DNA from: an uncultured bacterium
GTDB lineage: Bacteria; Patescibacteriota; Saccharimonadia; UBA4664
Assembly: GCA_963740635.1 (NCBI GenBank)
Contig: CAVUEQ010000001.1
Coordinates: 209,026 to 273,025, forward strand
Direction of reading: 5' to 3'
Length of the DNA stretch: 64,000 bases
The notes below the pieces were generated by a model. The model was given only the letters and a program-made list of their open reading frames with translations. It ran no database searches and had not been told where the DNA came from. Of the stretch, positions 822 through 11,912 are shown piece after piece. The translations under genes were made by a program, and so were the position numbers. How positions within the stretch are numbered: position 1 is the first letter of the stretch; every line of letters begins with the position of its first letter.

Positions 822-1002
822 CTGCTCCCAACCATTAGAGGATTGGACAAGCGAAAGGATTTATGATAGAGTGCTGATAGTTGTTGATCGTGAATAGCGC
901 GCCGAATTACTGGAACTGCGAATTTGCGAGGCAGTTTCAAGTAATTAGGAGATCTGTTTGTACCCACAATCAAGCGCCGGTCGCCGTCGCGGTGGCCGCC
1001 CC

Positions 1003-2247
1003 ATGTTTTCGTCGAAGAACTTGCGCCAGCCAAAAGTTAAAAATATCGACCCCAATAAATTCATTAATAAGGCCGTAGCGCCGCTCGACGAGGAAGTGTT
1101 TGAGCCGGTCCACAAATTTGTGGACTTCAAGCTCGACGACCGCATCCAATTCAACGTGGAGCAGCACGGATATGTGACCCCCACGCCCATTCAGGACGGG
1201 GCGATTCCGTACGTGCTGGCCGGCCGTGACCTGATTGGCCTGGCCAATACCGGCACCGGTAAAACGGCGGCGTTTTTGCTGCCGATTTTGCAGCGCATGC
1301 TGCACGGCATGGCCGGCCGCTGCCTGGTGCTGGTGCCCACGCGTGAGCTGGCGATCCAGATCGAGGAAGAGTTTAGGATTTTTGCCAAGGGCCTCAATCT
1401 GTACTCGACCCTCGTGGTGGGCGGCGCCTCGGTGGGCAGGCAGCAGTCGCAACTGTCGCGGCGGCCGCAGTTTATTATTGCCACGCCCGGCCGGCTGAAG
1501 GACCTGCTCGAAAATTATGGCCTCAAAATTTCTGATTTTGACGTCCTGGTGCTCGATGAGGCTGACCGCATGCTCGACATGGGCTTCATCCGCGACATCC
1601 GCGCGATCATGGGCTACCTGCGCGAAGACCGCCAAACGCTGTTTTTCAGCGCCACCATTACGCCTGATATTGAGCAACTACTCGACACTATTCTCAAAGA
1701 CCCGCACACCGTGAGCGTGCGCAAGGGCGAAACGAGCGACCACGTGGAGCAGGATGTGGTGCATGTGGAGGGTGGCAAAGAGGCCAAGGAAGCCAAGCTG
1801 GTGGAATTGCTGGGCGACCCTGAATTTAAGAAAGTGCTGATCTTTGGCGAAACCAAGTGGGGCGTGCAGAAGCTGGCCGACCGGCTGGAGCGCCGCGGCC
1901 TGCGGGTAGCGGCCATTCACGGCAACAAGAGCCAGCCGCAGCGCCAGAAGGCTCTAAACGATTTCAAGCTCGAGCGGGTGCAGGCGCTGATAGCCACCGA
2001 CGTGGCGGCGCGCGGCCTCGACATCCCGAATGTGTCGCACGTGATCAACTTCGACCCGCCCAAGCAATATGAGGACTACGTGCACCGCATCGGCCGCACC
2101 GGCCGCGCCGGATCCATGGGCAAGGCGCTGACGTTTGTGGCGACCGGTCCGGTGGCGTTTGCTGAGGCTACGCGGTCTTCGGCCGGTGGTGGCGGCGGAT
2201 ACCGCGGCAACGGTGGCGGTGGTGGTTACCGCGGCGGCCGGCGCTAA
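1003..2247 (+). CDS. DEAD-box ATP-dependent RNA helicase with Gly/Arg-rich C-terminal tail
   Basis: Motifs in the translation are 'TPIQ', 'NTGTGKTAAF' (Walker A), 'VLDEADRMLDMGF', 'SAT' and 'HRIGRTGRAG'. The tail is 'GGGGGYRGNGGGGGYRGGRR'. The ATG at 1003 is preferred over the TTG at 958 in the ORF track. Confidence 0.9.
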   Translation: MFSSKNLRQPKVKNIDPNKFINKAVAPLDEEVFEPVHKFVDFKLDDRIQFNVEQHGYVTPTPIQDGAIPYVLAGRDLIGLANTGTGKTAAFLLPILQRMLHGMAGRCLVLVPTRELAIQIEEEFRIFAKGLNLYSTLVVGGASVGRQQSQLSRRPQFIIATPGRLKDLLENYGLKISDFDVLVLDEADRMLDMGFIRDIRAIMGYLREDRQTLFFSATITPDIEQLLDTILKDPHTVSVRKGETSDHVEQDVVHVEGGKEAKEAKLVELLGDPEFKKVLIFGETKWGVQKLADRLERRGLRVAAIHGNKSQPQRQKALNDFKLERVQALIATDVAARGLDIPNVSHVINFDPPKQYEDYVHRIGRTGRAGSMGKALTFVATGPVAFAEATRSSAGGGGGYRGNGGGGGYRGGRR

Positions 2248-2391
2248 TTAACTCTTACTTATAAGGGTTCATTCCAGTTCGTATTGTGGTGCATGCCCTT
2301 TTTGCAAAATTAGCTATCACGTATTAGTAATCAGCTGATAGCTAAAACGCGTAACTAGGCATCTCCACTATCTATTAGGTAGCGGAGATAG

Positions 2392-2577
2392 CTAGTTTGG
2401 CGTTGGGGGTCTTGGCTGGTCGGCGGGGATTTCGGGTTCGGGGGCCGATTGCGGGGCGGCTTTCTCGTCGCCGGTAGAGGGGCCGAGCTGGCCGGCGTCG
2501 AGGTAGTACTGGCGGCTAGTGGAAGTGGTACCATCCTGGCTGACGAGGTTGGCGCCGGCTGGGACGTTTTTGGTCAT
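2392..2577 (-). pseudogene. Chimeric junction ORF: RHS-core fragment fused to a paralogue of the Clp ATPase C-terminal tail
   Basis: The translation is 'MTKNVPAGANLVSQDGTTSTSRQYYLD|AGQLGPSTGDEKAAPQSAPEPEIPADQPRPPTPN'. The first half repeats the RHS fragment at 3537-3573. The second half parallels the end of the Clp-like gene ('SLDAGQLGPSTGDEATAPKQPTPEPETPADQPLPPNN'). It is probably a recombination scar rather than a functional gene. Confidence 0.4.
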
Positions 2578-2609
2578 CAGGACTCGAGAACTTGATAGGC
2601 GGGTTTTGA

Positions 2610-2816
2610 CTAGGAATCGGAGCTATTAATGCTTCCTGCTAATTCATGTAGCAACTGGTTTGCGCGCTCCTTTGAGACGCCTAATCTAGTCTTAAACTCA
2701 GGTTCATCGAGCTTGATACCGTGACACACTTCATTTAGTGCGTTGTTCAAGAGCGTTGCTTCTTCCTTAGCCAAGCTGATGACTAGTTCGTCTTTTGTGA
2801 TGCTTATTGTCTTCAT
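2610..2816 (-). CDS. Small acidic protein, candidate immunity protein for the adjacent RHS C-terminal toxin domain
   Basis: A 68-aa ORF starts 11 nt after the stop of the RHS-CT frame on the same strand, in the same low-G+C stretch. This position is typical of immunity genes in polymorphic toxin loci. I recognise no family. Confidence 0.45.
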   Translation of the reverse strand: MKTISITKDELVISLAKEEATLLNNALNEVCHGIKLDEPEFKTRLGVSKERANQLLHELAGSINSSDS

Positions 2817-2827
2817 TCATTAAGCGC

Positions 2828-3595
2828 CTATCTTAGGTTGTTGTAATACTGCGTAGGGTTGGCGGGCCTAAACGCCGTACCCAAGTCTGGGTTAAGCGGA
2901 TCGTATATTACCACGGTTCCTGATGAAGCGTCTAGAAATCCTGTTCGTCCATTAGATAGCAACTTGTACGCAGTCGGATTTTCAATGACATTCTGTATGT
3001 GACTACTGAATTGTGCCTCACTATGTATGCCGAGGTTGGCAAATTCTGATAGGTGCTGCAGGGCATGGCCACGGCCAATGATGGAGCCGACTTTGCCGCC
3101 ACCCGGTAGCACTCCTAGAGCACTCCATGCAGCGCCCACACAGTCGCCAGCCTTGTAATCCTGGTACGCATGTATTGCGCTATCCGCGGCCCAGAAGAGG
3201 CCAGCGATTACTATGGCAACTCCGATCTGGATGAACTGGCAGGACGGATCGGTGTATATCAATGGGTTTCCATTAGCGTACGCATAGCCGTTTTGAGATT
3301 GTGGATCGCTTAGAGATCCACTAACAGGGTCCCGTGATGTGAAGCTGCCGAGAGTTGGATCGTAGGTACGGGCACGGAGGTTGTAGAGGCCGGTTTCACT
3401 GTCGGTCTGCTGGTTTTCGTACTTGAAGTCAGAGGTGTTGTTACCGGTGACCTGGTTGCCATAGGGATCGAAGGAGTAGGACTGGACGTTACTACCGGTG
3501 CTGTCTACGACTGCCCGGACGTTGCCAAGGCCGTCATCGAGGTAGTACTGGCGGCTAGTGGAGGTGGTACCATTTAGCCGGACTGATAGGCGGTA
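2828..3595 (-). pseudogene. Orphan RHS/YD-repeat core tip plus C-terminal toxin domain, lacking a start codon for the conserved part
   Basis: The frame is open from 3595, just after an in-frame TGA at 3596-3598, down to the stop at 2828. There is no ATG/GTG/TTG before 3262. My hand translation reads 'YRLSVRLNGTTSTSRQYYLDDGLGNVRAVVDSTGSNVQSYSFDPYGNQVTGNNTSDFKYENQQTDSETGLYNLRARTYDPTLGSFTSRDPVSGSLSDPQSQNGYAYANGNPLIYTDPSC'. That corresponds to the last YD repeats and the RHS core-end boundary (DPxG...N.Y.Y..NP....DP). About 135 aa of unassigned C-terminal domain follow. Confidence 0.75.
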
Positions 3596-3619
3596 TCATG
3601 TTCGTTCATAAGCTGCGAT

Positions 3620-4291
3620 TTAGCCCCTCTCCCAAAGTGAATACGTCTCATAGTCATATGCGGCGTTTACGACCGCTTTAGTGGCTGAGGCCATATCGTT
3701 AAGATCGTTTTCTGAAAGTTCTTGCCGCCTCTTTATTGTGGCTATTGGCACAATAAAGGCATTTAGTGGGTACCCGCTGGACTGGCTAAGATGCGCTGCC
3801 ATTTCCTCGCTAGTATGAATTTCGCCCAGCTCTTTTACGTGCAGGGGCTTGTCGTCAAAAAACAAGAGCTGAGCAGGTAGCTGTCTTTCTAGCACCAGAT
3901 CGCCCTTTCTCGCCAGGTCGTCTTCAACAACAACTGCGAGTGGTTGCTCAGACTTTTCAATGTCGCGTAGCTTCTCGAGTAGAATTTCCGCTTGCCTTTC
4001 AAATGAGATTTTTGGATCTGCCAACGCCCCTGTACTTAGATTTATATGGTCTTGCGCAGCCTTTTCGTGTTGAGGAAAAGCCAGTACTACCCTCGTGACC
4101 CCCTTGTTAAAGTCTAGTGATGCTAATGCGGCATGTGATAATTGGCCGCCGGCCTCTAGCGAGGCCTTCGTCCATCTGATTCCGTCCTCAAGCAAATTGT
4201 AAAAATGTGGCTTCATTCTTGTCATCCATAGATTTCGGTGCAATCCAGTCGCAATAATACCACATGGATTGGTTAGGGTGCGTAAACGCAT
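3620..4291 (-). CDS. Hypothetical protein (islet cargo, no recognisable family)
   Basis: A 223-aa ORF in the low-G+C islet between the Clp-like gene and the RHS fragment. Alternative in-frame ATGs at 4225 and 4216 are equally possible. No clear RBS. Confidence 0.5.
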   Translation of the reverse strand: MRLRTLTNPCGIIATGLHRNLWMTRMKPHFYNLLEDGIRWTKASLEAGGQLSHAALASLDFNKGVTRVVLAFPQHEKAAQDHINLSTGALADPKISFERQAEILLEKLRDIEKSEQPLAVVVEDDLARKGDLVLERQLPAQLLFFDDKPLHVKELGEIHTSEEMAAHLSQSSGYPLNAFIVPIATIKRRQELSENDLNDMASATKAVVNAAYDYETYSLWERG

Positions 4292-4475
4292 CCGAGCCGA
4301 AACAAATACCTACTCACGTACTCAAACATAAGCCGCCCTCCAGCTTCATTGATGATATTTAGCTTATTCTAAGTTGGCCGGAGTGCCAGCCGCAATTGGC
4401 TGAAGTGCTATTTCTGGCTACAGGTAGTTATCTGGGTGATGTTATGTGCGCATTTTGTGTGATTGTACTATCACA

Positions 4476-6929
4476 TCAGTTGTTTGGGGGCAGTGGCTGA
4501 TCGGCTGGAGTTTCAGGTTCGGGCGTGGGTTGCTTGGGGGCTGTCGCCTCGTCTCCGGTGGAGGGGCCGAGCTGGCCGGCGTCGAGGGAGACGGTGTCGC
4601 CGGGCTGGGCTTCGCCGCGCAGGATCATGGCGGCTACGGTGTCTTCCACGCGGCGCTGCACCATGCGGCGCATAGGGCGGGCGCCCAGGCGCGGGTCGTA
4701 GCCGGCCTTCACGAGCTCGGCGGCGGCCGCGTCGGTGAGGGTGACGGCGATTTTTTGGTTGGCGAGGGTTTTGTTGACCTCAGTGATCATGAGTTTAACG
4801 ACCTGGCCGAGCTCGGCTTCGTTGAGAGGGCGGAACAACACTATTTCGTCGAAGCGGTTGAGCAGTTCCGGGCGGAAGGCGCCGGAATCAATCAGTTGGT
4901 TGGTAAATTCCTGCTCGAAGTTCTCGAGCGCCTCCCCGGCCTGGATGCGGGCCCGGATATCCTCGGAGCCGGCATTACTGGTGGCAATAATGATGGCGTC
5001 CTTGAAACTGGCGGGGTGGCTGGAGGTATCGGTGAGGTTGCCTTCGTCGAGGAGTTGCAGGAGCAAGTTGAGGATGTTGGGGTGGGCTTTCTCGATTTCG
5101 TCGAACAACACCACGCTAAACGGTTTTTGGCGCACGCGCGGGAGCAGGCCTTCGGGGTTTTCGGCCGCGGTCATGAGAATGCGGTCAACGTCAGGGACTT
5201 GTTGGTATTCGGACATGTCGAGGCGGATAATGTTGTTTTCGTCGCCGAAATAGAGCGCGGCAATGCTGCGGGCGAGCTCGGTCTTACCGACGCCGGTGGG
5301 GCCCAGGAACAGGAACGAGCCGATGGGCCGTTTGGGGTTGGCGACGCCGGCGCGGGCGCGGCGCAGGGCGTTGGCGACCACGCTGACGGCGCGGGTTTGG
5401 TTGATCATGCGCTGGTGAATTTTGTCTTCCAGGTGGAGTAATACGTCGGATTCGGCGCTGGAGGCAGTTTGGACCTTCACTCCGAATTGTCCTTCCACGG
5501 CAACTTGGACGGATTTCTCGGTCACGAATGAGCCGTCGGGGTGGCTGGTGGCGGTTTCGAGCAGCTTGAGGGCTTTGCCGGGGTAGGCTTCGTCCTGGAA
5601 GTAGCGTCCGGACAGCCGGTAGGCTTCGAGCAGGGCCGAATAGGTGGTGACGAGTTTGCCGCGCTCCAGATACAGCGCCCGGTCGGCGAGTTGGCGCACT
5701 ACGCCGGCCTGGTCGGTTTCTGTGAGCACGAGCGGAGTCACCAGGCTGGCCATGGCGCTGTTGGTGGCCTTGAGCCGCTGCCAGTCGCCGGGGGTGAGGG
5801 CCAGCACCAGCTTGAAGCTGCGGGATTGCAGCAGCGGCAGCAGGACCTGGCTGAGGTTGACGGCGCCGGTGCCCTGGCCGAAGAACAGCTGGGCCTCGTC
5901 GAGCGCTACAATGATGTTGCCCGCATGGCCGGCCTCAGATAGCAATCCGGTGACGATGCGCTCAATGTCGCCGGTACCCTGGGCGGCCGACAGGATGCTT
6001 GAGGCATTGAGCGAGTAAATCTGGTAATGCGCGAGGCTGCGGCTGGCGCGGCCCTGGAGCAGGCGCTCGGCCAGGCCCAGGAGCAGGGCGGATTTGCCCA
6101 CGCCCGGCTCCCCCACCAGCACGACGCTCCCGGTGGCGCTGTCGAGGGCGGTGATGAGGTCGTCGAGCTGGGCGGTGCGCTCTTGCGTAGCCATATTGCC
6201 GGCGGCCGATTCCACGTCGAGGCTGAGGTTGGTGCCGAACTGCGCTAGCTGGGGCGTGAAGCCCGAGGCCCAGTCGCGGGCGATGCCGCCGTAGATAGGC
6301 CGCTTGATGTGGCTGAGCTGGATGACGCGGCGGGCCCAGAGCGCGCCGATCTCGAGGTCGGCCGGCGCCAGTTTGTGCTTGGTGAGGTAGGCCGAGAGCG
6401 CCGGTGTGAGCGCAAACAACGCGGCCAGCACGGCGCCGGCCTCGATGTTGGCGAAACCCAGCCGGGTGCTGACGGCTTCGGTTTCGGTCCAGAGTTGGTC
6501 AAAATCGATCTGGGCGGAGGCCAGCGTCCCGGCTACGAAATTGGCGTCGAGCTCGAAGCGCAAGGTTATGAAGCGCCCGTCAAAGGTTCGCGTGAGCATT
6601 TGCCATAGCTCGGCGGCAGTGAGCGGTTCGCGGTAGTTGGTGGCGAGTTCGAGGGGGAGCAGGGCGTCGAGTTGCTTGGTGGTGCCGATGGGAGCCGGGG
6701 GTAGTACGCCGAGGTCGCGCCGTACCCAGGTGAGGGTGGTGAGCAGCATGATGGCCAGGCCCGCCAGGCTGAGGCCCTGGTGGCGTCCAAACAGCACCAG
6801 GACGGCGCCGGATAGAAGCAGCAACCCGGCGGCCGCACCCAGGAGGGTTTTGAGGGCGTCCGGGAAGAGCTTGGCGCTGCGGGCCTTGGCGATACGGCCC
6901 GACAGGCTGTTAAACGTGTAGGCGCTCAT
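4476..6929 (-). CDS. Membrane-anchored double-AAA+ Clp/Hsp100-family ATPase
   Basis: There are two nucleotide-binding modules, 'LVGEPGVGKSALLLG' with 'IVALDEAQ' and 'FLFLGPTGVGKTELA' with 'VVLFDEIEKAH', plus sensor-2 'GARPMRR'. The N-terminus carries two hydrophobic helices ('LLGAAAGLLLLSGAVLVLF', 'LSLAGLAIMLLTTLTWV') ahead of Clp-N-like repeats. The ATG at 6929 overlaps the upstream stop as ATGA. Confidence 0.85.
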   Translation of the reverse strand: MSAYTFNSLSGRIAKARSAKLFPDALKTLLGAAAGLLLLSGAVLVLFGRHQGLSLAGLAIMLLTTLTWVRRDLGVLPPAPIGTTKQLDALLPLELATNYREPLTAAELWQMLTRTFDGRFITLRFELDANFVAGTLASAQIDFDQLWTETEAVSTRLGFANIEAGAVLAALFALTPALSAYLTKHKLAPADLEIGALWARRVIQLSHIKRPIYGGIARDWASGFTPQLAQFGTNLSLDVESAAGNMATQERTAQLDDLITALDSATGSVVLVGEPGVGKSALLLGLAERLLQGRASRSLAHYQIYSLNASSILSAAQGTGDIERIVTGLLSEAGHAGNIIVALDEAQLFFGQGTGAVNLSQVLLPLLQSRSFKLVLALTPGDWQRLKATNSAMASLVTPLVLTETDQAGVVRQLADRALYLERGKLVTTYSALLEAYRLSGRYFQDEAYPGKALKLLETATSHPDGSFVTEKSVQVAVEGQFGVKVQTASSAESDVLLHLEDKIHQRMINQTRAVSVVANALRRARAGVANPKRPIGSFLFLGPTGVGKTELARSIAALYFGDENNIIRLDMSEYQQVPDVDRILMTAAENPEGLLPRVRQKPFSVVLFDEIEKAHPNILNLLLQLLDEGNLTDTSSHPASFKDAIIIATSNAGSEDIRARIQAGEALENFEQEFTNQLIDSGAFRPELLNRFDEIVLFRPLNEAELGQVVKLMITEVNKTLANQKIAVTLTDAAAAELVKAGYDPRLGARPMRRMVQRRVEDTVAAMILRGEAQPGDTVSLDAGQLGPSTGDEATAPKQPTPEPETPADQPLPPNN

Positions 6930-7285
6930 AACAGCCCCCCCACGATGAAGGCCGGCCCGAGTACCGGGATCACCGGCCACAGGATCAGCAGCGTGCCGCC
7001 GATGATCGCGTATAGGCCCATGATGGTGATGGCGGCCAGCAGCGCCATCAGCCGCACCATAAACCCGACCACGCGCGAAATGAGGTTGTCGAGCGCGGCC
7101 CGTAATTTGGCTTCAATCCCCCGCCCCGGGTATGAAATTATCCGCCGCCAGGGTGCGAACATGGTCGGCAGCAGCATTGGCACGCTAAACATCAGGTAAG
7201 TATCGCGGATGCGTGAGCTCAGCCGGTTGGCGGCGTCGCGCCATCCGGGTCCGTACCACCACTGCACAAACGCCACCAGAAGCAT
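6926..7285 (-). CDS. Small polytopic membrane protein, translationally coupled to the Clp-like ATPase
   Basis: The 119-aa product has hydrophobic segments ('LMALLAAITIMGLYAIIGGTLLILWPVIPVLGPAFIVGGLL'). Its stop overlaps the next start (ATGA). An extended -10 TGCTACAAT ends 6 nt before the ATG, giving a leaderless layout. Confidence 0.6.
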   Translation of the reverse strand: MLLVAFVQWWYGPGWRDAANRLSSRIRDTYLMFSVPMLLPTMFAPWRRIISYPGRGIEAKLRAALDNLISRVVGFMVRLMALLAAITIMGLYAIIGGTLLILWPVIPVLGPAFIVGGLL

Positions 7286-11066: not shown

Positions 11067-11912
11067 CTACCGGATAACCCAGTTGCCGGCGCCGAGGTTG
11101 CGGACCTTGCCGGTGATCTCCATGAGGCTGATGATGTTGGCGAACTGGGCCGCGCTGAACCGGCCCTTTTCAATCAGCTCTTCGCTGGAGGTAGCGCCTT
11201 CCTCGAGCAGTTTGACGATGAGCTTTTCATCGGGGCTTTGCGCCGGGACGGGTACGGCTTCGCGGGCGTTGAAGCCGAGCGCATTGATGACGTCGGCGGA
11301 CGATGTGACGGGCGTGGCGCCGCTGCGCAGGAGATTGTTCGGTCCCGCCGAGAACTCGGAGTAGATGCTGCCGGGCACCGCCATCACCTGCCGGCCGAGG
11401 CCCAAAGCGCGGTGGGCTGTGATGAGCGCACCGCTTTTGGTGGCGGCTTCGGTGACGATGGTAGCGAAACTAAGCGCCGCGATAATGCGGTTGCGCTCCA
11501 CGAAATTTTCTTTGTAGGGGGGAATCCCAACTTCGTATTCGGAAACCAAGGCGCCGCCTTTGGCCAAAATCTCGGCGGCCAGTCCCCGGTGCCGCGGAGG
11601 GTAGATGCGGTCGAGCCCGTGGGCCAGCACTGCTACGGTCTTGCCGCCGGCGTCGAGGGCGGCGCGGTGGGCGATGGAATCAATGCCGATGGCCAGGCCA
11701 CTCACGATGACAGCGCCCGCACGCGACAATTCCTTCGCGATTTGGTAGGTCGCTTTCTCTCCGTAAATGGTGGGCTTGCGCGAGCCAACAATGGCGACGA
11801 GCGAATCTTTGGGCAATTCTCCTAAAACGTTAATGCTTTTGACGGGCGGGCCGGCCTGGCGCAGCTGATCTGGAAACTTACTTGATTTGGAAGAAATCTT
11901 AGAAATTTGCAT
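11067..11912 (-). CDS. dprA: DNA-processing protein DprA (Smf)
   Basis: 'IVGSRKPTIYGEKATYQIAKELSRAGAVIVSGLAIGIDSIAHRAAL...AVLAHGLDRIYP' is the canonical DprA Rossmann core. Confidence 0.9.
   Translation of the reverse strand: MQISKISSKSSKFPDQLRQAGPPVKSINVLGELPKDSLVAIVGSRKPTIYGEKATYQIAKELSRAGAVIVSGLAIGIDSIAHRAALDAGGKTVAVLAHGLDRIYPPRHRGLAAEILAKGGALVSEYEVGIPPYKENFVERNRIIAALSFATIVTEAATKSGALITAHRALGLGRQVMAVPGSIYSEFSAGPNNLLRSGATPVTSSADVINALGFNAREAVPVPAQSPDEKLIVKLLEEGATSSEELIEKGRFSAAQFANIISLMEITGKVRNLGAGNWVIR

What the first reader, a model, noticed from the sequence alone, without database searches (positions are those of the whole stretch)
2498..3573. 37-nt near-identical direct repeat brackets the toxin-immunity module
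Positions 2498-2534 and 3537-3573 (plus strand: TCGAGGTAGTACTGGCGGCTAGTGGA[A/G]GTGGTACCAT) differ at one position. On the coding strand both encode 'GTTSTSRQYYLD' of the RHS core. The toxin CT and its candidate immunity gene lie exactly between the copies. This is the substrate expected for cassette swapping or deletion by homologous recombination at the conserved core, as is known for rhs and cdi orphan modules.
Basis: seen in the sequence. Interest (0 to 1): 0.55.

Follow-up and report, generated by a model that had tools for sequence, protein, structure and literature searches.

The report
Stranded rhs toxin fragments beside clp
The 37-base repeat is real, but it is only the short overlap between two broken leftover pieces of an Rhs toxin gene that were carried into a tiny Saccharimonadia genome, and with no full-length rhs gene to recombine with it looks like a scar of past DNA exchange rather than a working cassette-swapping device.

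Summary
Observation confirmed. The 37-mer occurs only at 2498-2534 and 3537-3573 (36/37 identical, none expected by chance). On the minus strand both copies encode GTTSTSRQYYLD of an RHS core.

Interpretation only partly supported.
- The upstream copy is the exact 5' edge of an orphan rhs C-terminal fragment. It has no start codon or shell, but carries the Rhs_assc_core domain, a colicin-D/CdiA-CT-like toxin domain and a 68-aa candidate immunity gene.
- The downstream copy is the last 37 nt of a second, 3'-truncated rhs stub. That stub is fused in frame, at a CCTCGA microhomology, to a displaced and diverged copy of the 3' tail of the neighbouring clp-like gene.
- The whole 2,084-nt low-GC island is bracketed by this clp-tail repeat, which includes a perfect 27-nt block.
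- No full-length rhs is in the window, and none was detected among proteins of the 829-kb source contig. An independent assembly has the same structure. The closest relative has an empty site.
- Related full-length RHS genes exist only in unrelated metagenome contigs of about 50% GC.

Best reading: a relic of a C-terminal-displacement rhs array, transplanted next to clp by recombination between lineages with one illegitimate end. The 37-mer could at most support rare deletion. This is an ordinary kind of feature in an unusual host.

The parts
3537..3573 (-). 37-mer copy R. It is the exact 5' edge of orphan rhs fragment 1 and encodes (N)GTTSTSRQYYLD.
   Evidence: RHS-family homology to P0001 and L060 begins here.
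3263..3536 (-). Remaining RHS core of orphan 1, holding the Rhs_assc_core domain and ending ...YANGNPLIYTDPSC. There is no start codon anywhere in the core part.
   Evidence: TIGR03696 scores E 2.7e-19. The region is 77% identical at protein level to P0001 and 82% at nucleotide level to the full-length RHS L060/L061. The in-frame stop at 3596-3598 and the lack of ATG/GTG/TTG before 3262 come.
2828..3262 (-). C-terminal toxin region of orphan 1 (144 codons including a TTG at 3262). It consists of a hydrophobic/linker part followed by a BECR-like RNase domain with a GHALQH...GRTGFLD...GTAFRP motif.
   Evidence: There are 790 relatives, always C-terminal, some on full-length RHS proteins. The AF2 model has pLDDT above 95 for residues 58-144. 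The best Foldseek hit is CdiA-CT 8ey4_A (prob 1.0), followed by the colicin D tRNase. The PDB profile hit to 8ey4_A has E 0.03.
2610..2816 (-). imm68, a 68-aa candidate immunity gene starting 11 nt after the toxin stop.
   Evidence: The assignment rests on position only. There is no family hit and no similarity to ORFs downstream of two toxin homologues.
2535..2592 (-). E, the upstream part of rhs stub 2 (SRVLMTKNVPAGANLVSQD). It is homologous to the RHS core just upstream of the 37-mer, with a 9-codon deletion.
   Evidence: tblastn of P0001 aa 2-43 matches 2589->2491 with E 2.6e-8. blastn to L060 gives 79% identity.
2498..2534 (-). 37-mer copy R', the last 37 nt of the 3'-truncated rhs stub 2.
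2392..2506 (-). B', a displaced and diverged copy of the clp 3' tail (LDAGQLGPSTGDEKAAPQSAPEPEIPADQPRPPTPN*), fused in frame to R'. The junction microhomology is CCTCGA. The resulting chimeric 61-aa ORF spans 2392-2577.
   Evidence: (D1, D2, D4).
4476..4590 (-). B, the 3' tail of the intact clp-like gene. It shares a perfect 27-nt block (4561-4587 = 2477-2503) with B', at a spacing of 2,084 nt.
3620..4291 (-). p198/p223 (the likely start is 4216). This is an orphan immunity-like gene, homologous to the gene immediately downstream of the related rhs fragment P0001 in contig L059.
   Evidence: BLASTP gives 38% identity, E 3e-40. No cognate toxin remnant lies upstream.
4217..4475 (-). AT-rich non-coding leader between the clp stop codon and p198; it is the left part of the island.
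   Evidence: All three frames contain stops and GC is 0.448. No terminator-like structure follows the clp stop.
4476..6980 (-). Clp/AAA+ ATPase gene (834-aa ORF; the database protein is 817 aa). It is conserved in Saccharimonadia and convergent with the DEAD-box helicase gene.
   Evidence: Pfam AAA_2 and ClpB_D2-small; synteny; P0009.
2300..2391 (-). Two strong hairpins directly after the stop codon of the displaced tail B'. They are probably the original clp (bidirectional) terminator.
   Evidence: -36.6 kcal/mol, z = -6.0, against z = -0.46 after the functional clp stop.
958..2247 (+). DEAD-box helicase gene, the conserved convergent neighbour of clp and the right flank of the insertion site.
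   Evidence: Pfam DEAD and Helicase_C; synteny in 16 relatives.

Best explanation
The two 37-mers are the only overlap between two incomplete pieces of RHS core sequence that lie in tandem. This is the pattern left by C-terminal displacement in an rhs locus. Piece 1 (3573->2828) is an orphan rhs C-terminus cut at its 5' side exactly where the 37-mer begins. It keeps about 105 codons of core, an RNase-like toxin domain and a downstream candidate immunity gene. Piece 2 (about 2592->2498) starts further upstream in the core (SRVL...) but is cut at its 3' side exactly where the 37-mer ends. There it is joined, at a CCTCGA microhomology, to a second and diverged copy of the clp 3' tail.

The array fragment is p198 (immunity-like), orphan 1, imm68 and stub 2. 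It is foreign low-GC DNA sitting in the normally compact clp-helicase junction of a Saccharimonadia genome that has no full-length rhs.

The most likely history (inferred, not shown) has two steps. First, a sister lineage carried the array fragment downstream of its clp gene. Second, DNA from that lineage recombined into this lineage with one homologous end in clp and one illegitimate end, where the rhs core of stub 2 met the recipient's clp tail. This is homology-facilitated illegitimate recombination, plausible in a naturally competent group. It would have left the donor tail on clp and pushed the recipient's own tail and terminator 2,084 nt downstream.

The 37-mer therefore has no designed function. 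It sits at the lower limit for RecA-dependent recombination and could at most give rare deletion of the toxin and immunity genes. The 27-nt perfect block in the clp-tail repeat could equally delete the whole island and restore a normal clp.
For: Shown:
- The repeat is real and unique in the window.
- Both copies are RHS core.
- Homology stops sharply on both outer sides.
- Orphan 1 has no start codon before the toxin part.
- Stub 2 matches aa 2-43 of the related fragment P0001 (E 2.6e-8) and the full-length RHS L060/L061.
- The clp tail is duplicated 2,084 nt apart at 78.6% identity, with a perfect 27-nt block. Both copies keep an intact frame and stop codon.
- The RHS/clp junction shares CCTCGAYGMCGGCC in all three sequences.
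- The island is 44-54% GC against 61-71% in clp, the clp tails and the helicase gene.
- clp-helicase synteny is conserved in 16 relatives. The closest (77% aa) has a 160-nt empty gap, and none has a tail repeat, RHS, p198 or imm68.
- Strong terminator-like hairpins follow only the displaced tail.
- The 37-mer pair (1/37 differences) is significantly less diverged than the tail pair (22/103; Fisher p = 0.008). This argues against a single in-situ duplication.
- p198 is homologous to the gene downstream of P0001, yet it has no toxin upstream. The island is therefore a fragment of a larger array.
- No RHS-core protein from the 829-kb source contig appears among the hits.
- DprA lies 7 kb away, and Saccharibacteria are naturally competent (PMC10633639).
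- HFIR uses 3-10 bp microhomologies, and the MEPS (minimal efficient processing segment, the shortest identity RecA recombination needs) is about 25-35 bp (PMC6382021).
- The C-terminal displacement architecture is described in PMC5727410.
Against: - No donor or recipient allele has been seen. The species is represented by one genome plus one identical 3.2-kb Logan contig, so the order and direction of events are inferred.
- The absence of a full-length rhs elsewhere in the genome rests on a word-seeded protein search, not on reading the other 765 kb.
- The divergence argument rests on small counts (37 and 103 sites).
- The clp tail is a fast-evolving low-complexity region.
- How the array fragment first came to lie after a clp stop codon is unexplained.
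Confidence: 0.7

Rival explanations
1. One reading: the 37-mer pair is a working recombination substrate that lets the toxin-immunity cassette be swapped onto an rhs gene or deleted, as in rhs and cdi orphan systems.
For: The copies are conserved RHS core. The 26-nt exact run is about the length at which RecA strand exchange becomes possible (PMC6382021). The toxin and imm68 ORFs are intact. Orphan re-recruitment by core recombination is documented (PMC3967940, PMC5727410).
Against: There is no full-length rhs in the window, and none was detected on the source contig. The downstream copy belongs to a dead stub fused to a clp tail, so recombination yields a start-less fragment rather than a new toxin. 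The homology is 37 nt, against 522 bp in the documented case (PMC3967940). No variant was seen.
Confidence: 0.1
2. The 2,084-nt island is a small integrative or excisable element that targets the 3' end of clp by site-specific recombination. The clp-tail repeats would be attL and attR, and the 37-mer would simply be cargo sequence next to one att site.
For: The insertion is at the 3' end of a conserved gene and reconstitutes the ORF. It is flanked by direct repeats with a perfect 27-nt core and has low GC. The clp-helicase gap holds variable cargo in relatives.
Against: No integrase or recombinase lies in the island, which contains only p198, the rhs pieces and imm68. None of 16 related loci, including those with 1.2-2.6 kb of cargo, has a clp-tail repeat. 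The element-side junction falls inside RHS coding sequence, so an illegitimate join is still required.
Confidence: 0.08
3. The foreign fragment was inserted in situ with a duplication of about 110 nt of the target (the clp tail). The displaced copy then drifted as a pseudogene, and the 37-mers are simply part of the inserted array.
For: It needs only one event and no sister lineage. The tail is a low-complexity region that evolves quickly between species.
Against: The adjacent, equally unconstrained 37-mer pair differs at 1/37, whereas the tails differ at 22/103 plus two indels (Fisher p = 0.008). The displaced tail keeps an intact frame, only in-frame indels and a stop at the equivalent position. 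The island's ORFs are all intact, which suggests a recent arrival.
Confidence: 0.07
4. Assembly artefact: a metagenome assembler joined strain variants at short repeats and created a false duplication or chimera.
For: The source is evidently a metagenome-assembled Saccharimonadia genome, and short repeats lie at both junctions.
Against: An independently assembled Logan contig from run ERR11718635 is 100% identical over window 2084-5304 and spans both junctions. The exact repeats (26-27 nt) are short.
Confidence: 0.03

Closest known systems
Salmonella Typhimurium rhs-main / rhs-CT-orphan locus (Koskiniemi et al. 2014, PMC3967940)
   Same: It has an orphan rhs C-terminal fragment with its own immunity gene and no delivery part. 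The fragment retains a stretch of core sequence that is a direct repeat of another rhs core copy nearby.
   Different: In Salmonella the partner is a full-length rhs immediately upstream, and the homology is 522 bp at 95% identity. Recombination there creates a functional chimeric toxin. Here the partner is a 27-codon dead stub, the homology is 37 nt, and no full-length rhs is detectable.
C-terminal displacement arrays of Rhs loci (Jackson et al. 2009; Snodgrassella alvi, PMC5727410)
   Same: Truncated rhs fragments lie in tandem, each beginning with a different length of conserved core and followed by an immunity gene. An immunity gene without its toxin (p198) is also present.
   Different: The array here lacks its 5' full-length gene and has been moved out of context to the 3' end of a housekeeping AAA+ gene. 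The host is a Patescibacteria genome of about 0.83 Mb.
Homology-facilitated illegitimate recombination during natural transformation (de Vries & Wackernagel 2002; Prudhomme et al. 2002; summarised in PMC6382021)
   Same: Foreign DNA is added next to a homologous anchor. The other end is joined at a short GC-rich microhomology: 6 nt exact, and 12 of 14 over the wider stretch. The host group is naturally competent and encodes DprA.
   Different: This is only a footprint. Neither the donor nor the recipient allele has been observed, and the mechanism has not been shown in Patescibacteria.
CdiA-CT of E. coli O32:H37 (PDB 8ey4) and the colicin D tRNase domain (1v74, 1tfo)
   Same: The predicted fold of the orphan's toxin domain matches (Foldseek prob 1.0 and 0.9). 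There is a shared GH..KH..EF ... T.F.P..G..Y sequence pattern with 8ey4_A.
   Different: Sequence identity is 14-23%. Catalytic residues and substrate were not tested. The candidate immunity protein shows no detectable relationship to known immunity proteins.

Membership tests
Rhs/YD polymorphic toxin: orphan C-terminal (rhs-CT) module | RHS repeat-associated core domain immediately N-terminal of the variable C-terminal toxin domain (CT) | tested here: met
   TIGR03696 Rhs_assc_core scores E 2.7e-19 on residues 42-118 of the orphan frame. A weak RHS_repeat hit covers residues 21-49.
Rhs/YD polymorphic toxin: orphan C-terminal (rhs-CT) module | The core ends in the PxxxxDPxGL-type demarcation motif, after which the sequence diverges between relatives | tested here: met
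   The window reads NPLIYTDPSC, P0001 reads NPINLSDPSGM and L060 reads NPINGTDPSGK. Identity is 77-82% up to this point and unrelated after it. The final GL is not conserved in the window copy (it reads SC).
Rhs/YD polymorphic toxin: orphan C-terminal (rhs-CT) module | The C-terminal domain is a toxin domain that also occurs on full-length RHS proteins | tested here: met
   There are 790 relatives, all C-terminal, including RHS proteins of 1,233-2,192 aa. The fold resembles CdiA-CT and colicin D RNases. Toxicity itself was not tested.
Rhs/YD polymorphic toxin: orphan C-terminal (rhs-CT) module | A cognate immunity gene lies directly downstream | tested here: inconclusive
   A 68-aa ORF starts 11 nt after the toxin stop. 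It has no family hit and no similarity to ORFs downstream of two homologous toxins.
Rhs/YD polymorphic toxin: orphan C-terminal (rhs-CT) module | Lacks the N-terminal region, the YD shell and a translation start (this is what makes it an orphan) | tested here: met
   A stop codon lies 7 codons upstream of the 37-mer. There is no ATG, GTG or TTG before 3262. RHS homology begins at 3571-3573.
Recombination-competent rhs main/orphan system (cassette swapping) | A full-length rhs gene in the same genome shares the core sequence with the orphan | tested here: not met
   No ORF longer than 850 aa and no other RHS-core match exists in the window. Only 8 related proteins were found among 5.8 billion, and none lies on the 829-kb source contig. 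The rest of the genome was not read directly.
Recombination-competent rhs main/orphan system (cassette swapping) | Homology long enough for efficient homologous recombination (hundreds of bp in the documented case) | tested here: not met
   The homology is 37 nt with a 26-nt longest exact run. The documented case uses 522 bp at 95% identity (PMC3967940). The MEPS is about 25-35 bp (PMC6382021).
Recombination-competent rhs main/orphan system (cassette swapping) | Structural variants (recombined or deleted junctions, alternative CTs on the same core) exist in the population | tested here: inconclusive
   The one independent assembly is identical. There were 0 matches to the degenerate repeat in JGI metagenomes and 0 in viral contigs. 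No strain-level relatives exist in the databases.
C-terminal displacement array | Tandem truncated rhs fragments begin at different points of the same conserved core, interleaved with immunity genes | tested here: met
   Orphan 1 starts at GTTSTS, and stub 2 starts about 30 codons earlier in the core (SRVL...). The order p198, orphan 1, imm68, stub 2 comes.
Homology-facilitated illegitimate recombination footprint | A novel joint at a 3-10 bp microhomology, next to a segment homologous to the recipient | tested here: met
   CCTCGA is shared exactly by the RHS core (3537-3542 region), clp (4582-4587 region) and the chimera, with 12 of 14 matching over CCTCGAYGMCGGCC.
Homology-facilitated illegitimate recombination footprint | Identifiable donor and recipient alleles | not testable with these tools
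   The nearest other clp is 79-80% identical, and no sister-strain loci are available.
Site-specific integrative island at the 3' end of a gene | Flanking direct repeats that contain an identical core | tested here: met
   A perfect 27-nt block lies at 2477-2503 and 4561-4587, inside repeats of about 110 nt at 79% identity.
Site-specific integrative island at the 3' end of a gene | An integrase or recombinase is encoded in or beside the island | tested here: not met
   The island ORFs have no recombinase domains. Neighbouring ORFs up to 9.1 kb have no Pfam recombinase hit.

The most novel reading that the evidence does not exclude
The locus would be a preserved natural footprint of DNA exchange between Saccharimonadia lineages by transformation with one illegitimate end. 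That event transplanted part of an rhs orphan array next to clp. The stranded modules would then be kept because they are useful without any Rhs delivery protein. They could act as stockpiled immunity genes (p198, imm68), or as a toxin-antitoxin-like pair transcribed by read-through from clp, which lost its terminator to the displaced tail. Such a role has been reported for Salmonella orphan rhs elements (PMC7043789).
Probability: 0.15. Interest if true: 0.5.

Novelty: new member of a known kind. Interest (0 to 1): 0.3.

Why it matters
For the original question it matters little. Short direct repeats of rhs core around orphan toxin-immunity modules are the expected debris of C-terminal displacement, and this one lacks the partner gene that would make it functional. 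The surroundings are modestly informative. They show foreign polymorphic-toxin and immunity cargo lodged in a reduced Patescibacteria genome. The junction architecture (duplicated gene tail, microhomology joint, displaced terminator) reads like a natural example of transformation-driven illegitimate recombination in a group only recently shown to be competent. The locus also adds an uncharacterised, widespread RNase-like toxin domain family (790 clusters at 50% identity) that Pfam does not yet describe.

Tried and rejected
1. I looked for more copies of the 37-mer. There are none in the window with up to 3 mismatches. A codon-degenerate version gave 0 hits in JGI metagenomes, and a neighbouring core pattern gave 0 hits in viral contigs.
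2. I looked for a full-length rhs. None is in the window. The protein search with the orphan frame gave only 8 hits, none from the source contig.
3. I looked for strain-level relatives to find empty, donor or deleted alleles. The clp search found only the source protein at 100% and the next at 79-80%. Exact-protein look-ups of p223, P0009 and P0279 were not on record. imm68 gave only one identical Logan contig.
4. I tested whether the repeat is the conserved core of a longer decayed homology. It is not: upstream similarity is not above shuffles.
5. I tested whether the clp tail is a general integration site. None of 16 related loci has a tail repeat, and their cargo is unrelated (YggT-family protein and unknown ORFs).
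6. I compared the intergenic DNA with relatives to decide which tail is ancestral. There was no nucleotide similarity at this distance. The terminator-hairpin argument was used instead.
7. I searched for a remnant of the p198-cognate toxin in the leader 4217-4475 and found none.
8. I tried to validate imm68 through neighbours of toxin homologues and found no similarity. P0129 was not on record.
9. A search for p198 homologues returned only itself.
10. The promoter and terminator consensus scan of 2200-4700 was uninformative.
Full report
**Observation**

The 37-mer is present exactly where reported. The pattern TCGAGGTAGTACTGGCGGCTAGTGGARGTGGTACCAT matches only at 2498-2534 and 3537-3573, even with three mismatches allowed, and no dinucleotide-preserving shuffle gives a match. 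The copies differ at one base, giving exact runs of 26 and 10 nt. The repeat finder extends the similarity to 45 nt at 93%. The coding strand is the minus strand. The copies read D-GTTSTSRQYYLD-A and N-GTTSTSRQYYLD-D.

**Anatomy of the locus, read on the minus strand**

- A Clp/AAA+ ATPase gene runs from 6980 to 4476 (Pfam AAA_2, ClpB_D2-small).
- A 259-nt AT-rich non-coding leader follows.
- Next is p198/p223 (4216 or 4291 to 3620), which has no family hit.
- After 46 nt comes an open frame from 3595 to 2828. It has no start codon until a TTG at 3262. It carries the RHS repeat-associated core domain (TIGR03696, E 2.7e-19) and a 144-codon C-terminal region.
- Eleven nt later lies a 68-aa ORF, imm68 (2816-2610).
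- About 18 nt later starts a 27-codon RHS-like stretch (SRVLMTKNVPAGANLVSQDGTTSTSRQYYLD). It runs straight into AGQLGPSTGDEKAAPQSAPEPEIPADQPRPPTPN*, a second copy of the last 35 codons of the clp gene.
- Two strong hairpins follow, and then the convergent DEAD-box helicase gene (958-2247).

The stretch 2580-4450 has 44-54% GC, against 61-71% for clp, its tails and the helicase gene.

**What the two copies are**

The orphan frame has very few relatives: 8 proteins out of 5.8 billion.

The best relative, P0001 (260 aa, on the 3.1-kb contig L059, GC 48%), is itself an rhs fragment. Its residues 30-142 match orphan 1 from 3571 onward at 77%. Its residues 2-43 match the downstream stub (2589->2491, E 2.6e-8), apart from a 9-codon deletion.

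A profile scan of JGI metagenomes found contigs L061 and L060. They overlap with 100% identity over 574 nt and have 50% GC. [quoted passage not shown] Its core reads ...GKLSRVLIAKNVPAGTSSYYVYDGTGLVSQGGSSTASRQYYLDDGLGNIRAV... and is 82% identical in DNA to orphan 1.

Both window pieces are therefore parts of one core region of one RHS family. Orphan 1 begins within the core exactly at the 37-mer; similarity upstream of it is not above chance (shuffle p 0.11-0.37). The stub begins about 30 codons earlier in the core and ends exactly at the 37-mer, where the clp-tail sequence takes over. The 37-mer is simply the region that a 5'-truncated piece and a 3'-truncated piece have in common.

**No partner and no variation**

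The window contains no long RHS gene and no other RHS-core match. The clp protein identifies the source as an 828,923-nt contig of a Candidatus Saccharimonadia genome. None of the proteins related to the orphan lies on a contig of that size. A full-length rhs sharing a recombinogenic core is therefore not detectable in this genome.

A Logan assembly of run ERR11718635 is 100% identical over 2084-5304 and spans both odd junctions. This argues against misassembly and shows no variant. The degenerate repeat is absent from JGI metagenomes and a neighbouring core pattern is absent from viral contigs. The next clp relative is only 79-80% identical, so no population data exist.

**The larger bracket**

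The clp tail is duplicated 2,084 nt apart (2392-2506 and 4476-4590). The copies have 22 mismatches in 103 aligned positions plus two 3-nt indels, and share a perfect 27-nt block at 2477-2503 and 4561-4587. Both copies keep an intact frame and a stop at the equivalent place.

The RHS core, the clp gene and the chimera all share CCTCGA at the joint, and 12 of 14 positions over CCTCGAYGMCGGCC.

In 16 related genomes clp and the helicase gene are convergent neighbours. The closest (UBA6017, 77% aa) has only 160 nt between the aligned ends of the two genes, and others hold a YggT-family gene or unrelated ORFs. None has a tail repeat, RHS, p198 or imm68. The tails of relatives differ from both window copies, which resemble each other most.

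The hairpins that look like the clp terminator follow the displaced tail (z = -6.0) and not the functional one (z = -0.46).

The 37-mer pair is significantly less diverged than the adjacent tail pair (Fisher p = 0.008). This is hard to reconcile with one in-situ duplication followed by drift.

**p198**

This gene is 38% identical (E 3e-40) to the gene that directly follows the rhs fragment P0001 in L059. It is therefore probably an immunity gene of that toxin type. In the window nothing toxin-like precedes it. The island is thus an internal fragment of a longer toxin-immunity array.

**Most likely mechanism**

Shown: the structure, the homologies, the junction microhomology, the compositional foreignness, the conserved empty site in relatives, and the lack of a partner gene.

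Inferred:
1. The pieces descend from an rhs locus shaped by C-terminal displacement. That process leaves tandem truncated fragments, each starting with a different length of core (PMC5727410, citing Jackson 2009 and Koskiniemi 2014).
2. A fragment of such an array came to lie after clp in a Saccharimonadia lineage.
3. DNA from that lineage entered the present lineage with one end paired in clp and the other joined illegitimately, where the rhs core of stub 2 met the recipient's clp tail. This displaced the recipient's tail and terminator.

This is the pattern of homology-facilitated illegitimate recombination, which uses microhomologies of 3-10 bp (PMC6382021). Saccharibacteria are naturally competent (PMC10633639), and DprA is encoded at 11067-11912 (PF02481, E 1.5e-66).

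The 37-mer then has no purpose of its own. Its 26-nt exact run sits at the threshold for RecA strand exchange (MEPS 25-35 bp; PMC6382021). The documented orphan recruitment in Salmonella uses 522 bp at 95% identity (PMC3967940). Recombination between the copies would remove the toxin and imm68 and leave a start-less fragment. Recombination at the 27-nt block of the tail repeat would excise the whole island and restore a normal clp.

**The toxin-immunity label**

The C-terminal 90 residues have 790 relatives among 1.84 billion cluster representatives. All are at protein C-termini, including RHS proteins of 1,233-2,192 aa. The consensus is IAxGHAFxKH..EF..LGI...GRTAYWD..TGTVVI.NP...DGGTAFRP. No Pfam or NCBIfam model covers it.

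An AlphaFold model built on 40 sequences is confident for residues 58-144. It best matches the CdiA-CT toxin of E. coli O32:H37 (8ey4_A, prob 1.0, TM 0.66 on the target), then the colicin D tRNase (prob 0.9). A profile search also finds 8ey4_A weakly (E 0.03). A BECR-type RNase toxin is therefore likely but untested.

imm68 is an immunity candidate by position only.

**Comparison and verdict**

The locus works like, and passes the tests for, orphan rhs C-terminal modules and a C-terminal-displacement array. It fails the two features that define a recombination-competent main/orphan system: a full-length partner and substantial homology. It is a new member of a known kind in an unusual host.

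I rate interest at 0.3, mainly for the junction architecture and the Patescibacteria context rather than for the repeat itself.

Noticed in passing
window 2392-2506 and 4476-4590: The last ~35 codons of the clp-like gene are present twice, 2,084 nt apart. The copies are 78.6% identical, share a perfect 27-nt block (2477-2503 and 4561-4587), and both keep an intact frame and stop. This repeat, not the 37-mer, brackets the whole low-GC island. It produces a chimeric 61-aa ORF (2392-2577), half RHS and half clp tail.
   Followed up: yes
window 3620-4291 (-); L059 1469-2068: p198/p223 has no family annotation. It is 38% identical (E 3e-40) to the gene directly downstream of a related rhs fragment in a metagenome contig. 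It is probably an orphan immunity gene whose toxin is missing here. A word-seeded search of 5.8 billion proteins found only itself.
   Followed up: partly
window 2300-2400 (-): Two very stable hairpins (-36.6 kcal/mol, z = -6.0) lie immediately after the stop of the displaced clp tail. Nothing comparable follows the functional clp stop at 4476, so clp transcription may read through into the island.
   Followed up: partly
window 2828-3100 (-), toxin domain: The toxin domain belongs to a large family not described in Pfam or NCBIfam (790 clusters at 50% identity, consensus GHAFxKH...GRTAYWD...GTAFRP). It sits at the C-termini of RHS and other polymorphic toxins. Its predicted fold is closest to CdiA-CT 8ey4 and the colicin D tRNase.
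   Followed up: partly
L061 1-3517 and L060 1-2116: Two JGI contigs from different samples overlap with 100% identity over 574 nt. [quoted passage not shown] It is the nearest full-length relative of the window's fragments. The organism is unknown (GC 50%).
   Followed up: partly
L002-L016, L048, L049 (clp-helicase junction): The gap between the convergent clp and DEAD-box helicase genes is a variable spot in Saccharimonadia, ranging from 56 to 2,630 nt. It often holds a YggT-family small membrane protein. L003 holds a 573-aa ORF with no Pfam hit, and L003 and L005 share a small conserved ORF.
   Followed up: partly
window 4476-7285 (-): The Clp-like AAA+ protein has a hydrophobic N-terminal region instead of a ClpB/ClpC N-domain. 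In nearly all related loci it is preceded by a conserved 119-aa membrane protein (6926-7285) whose 3' end overlaps the start of the 834-aa clp ORF. This suggests a conserved two-gene membrane-associated unit of unknown role.
   Followed up: no
window 11067-11912 (-): A DprA gene (PF02481, E 1.5e-66) lies 7 kb from the island, consistent with natural competence in this group.
   Followed up: partly
L063 1-4573: A contig carrying a homologue of the toxin domain shows the textbook arrangement: a full-length RHS (1,740 aa), then a 326-aa orphan with this toxin, then a 103-aa RHS-core stub. It is followed by a resolvase and a Tn3-family transposase.
   Followed up: no
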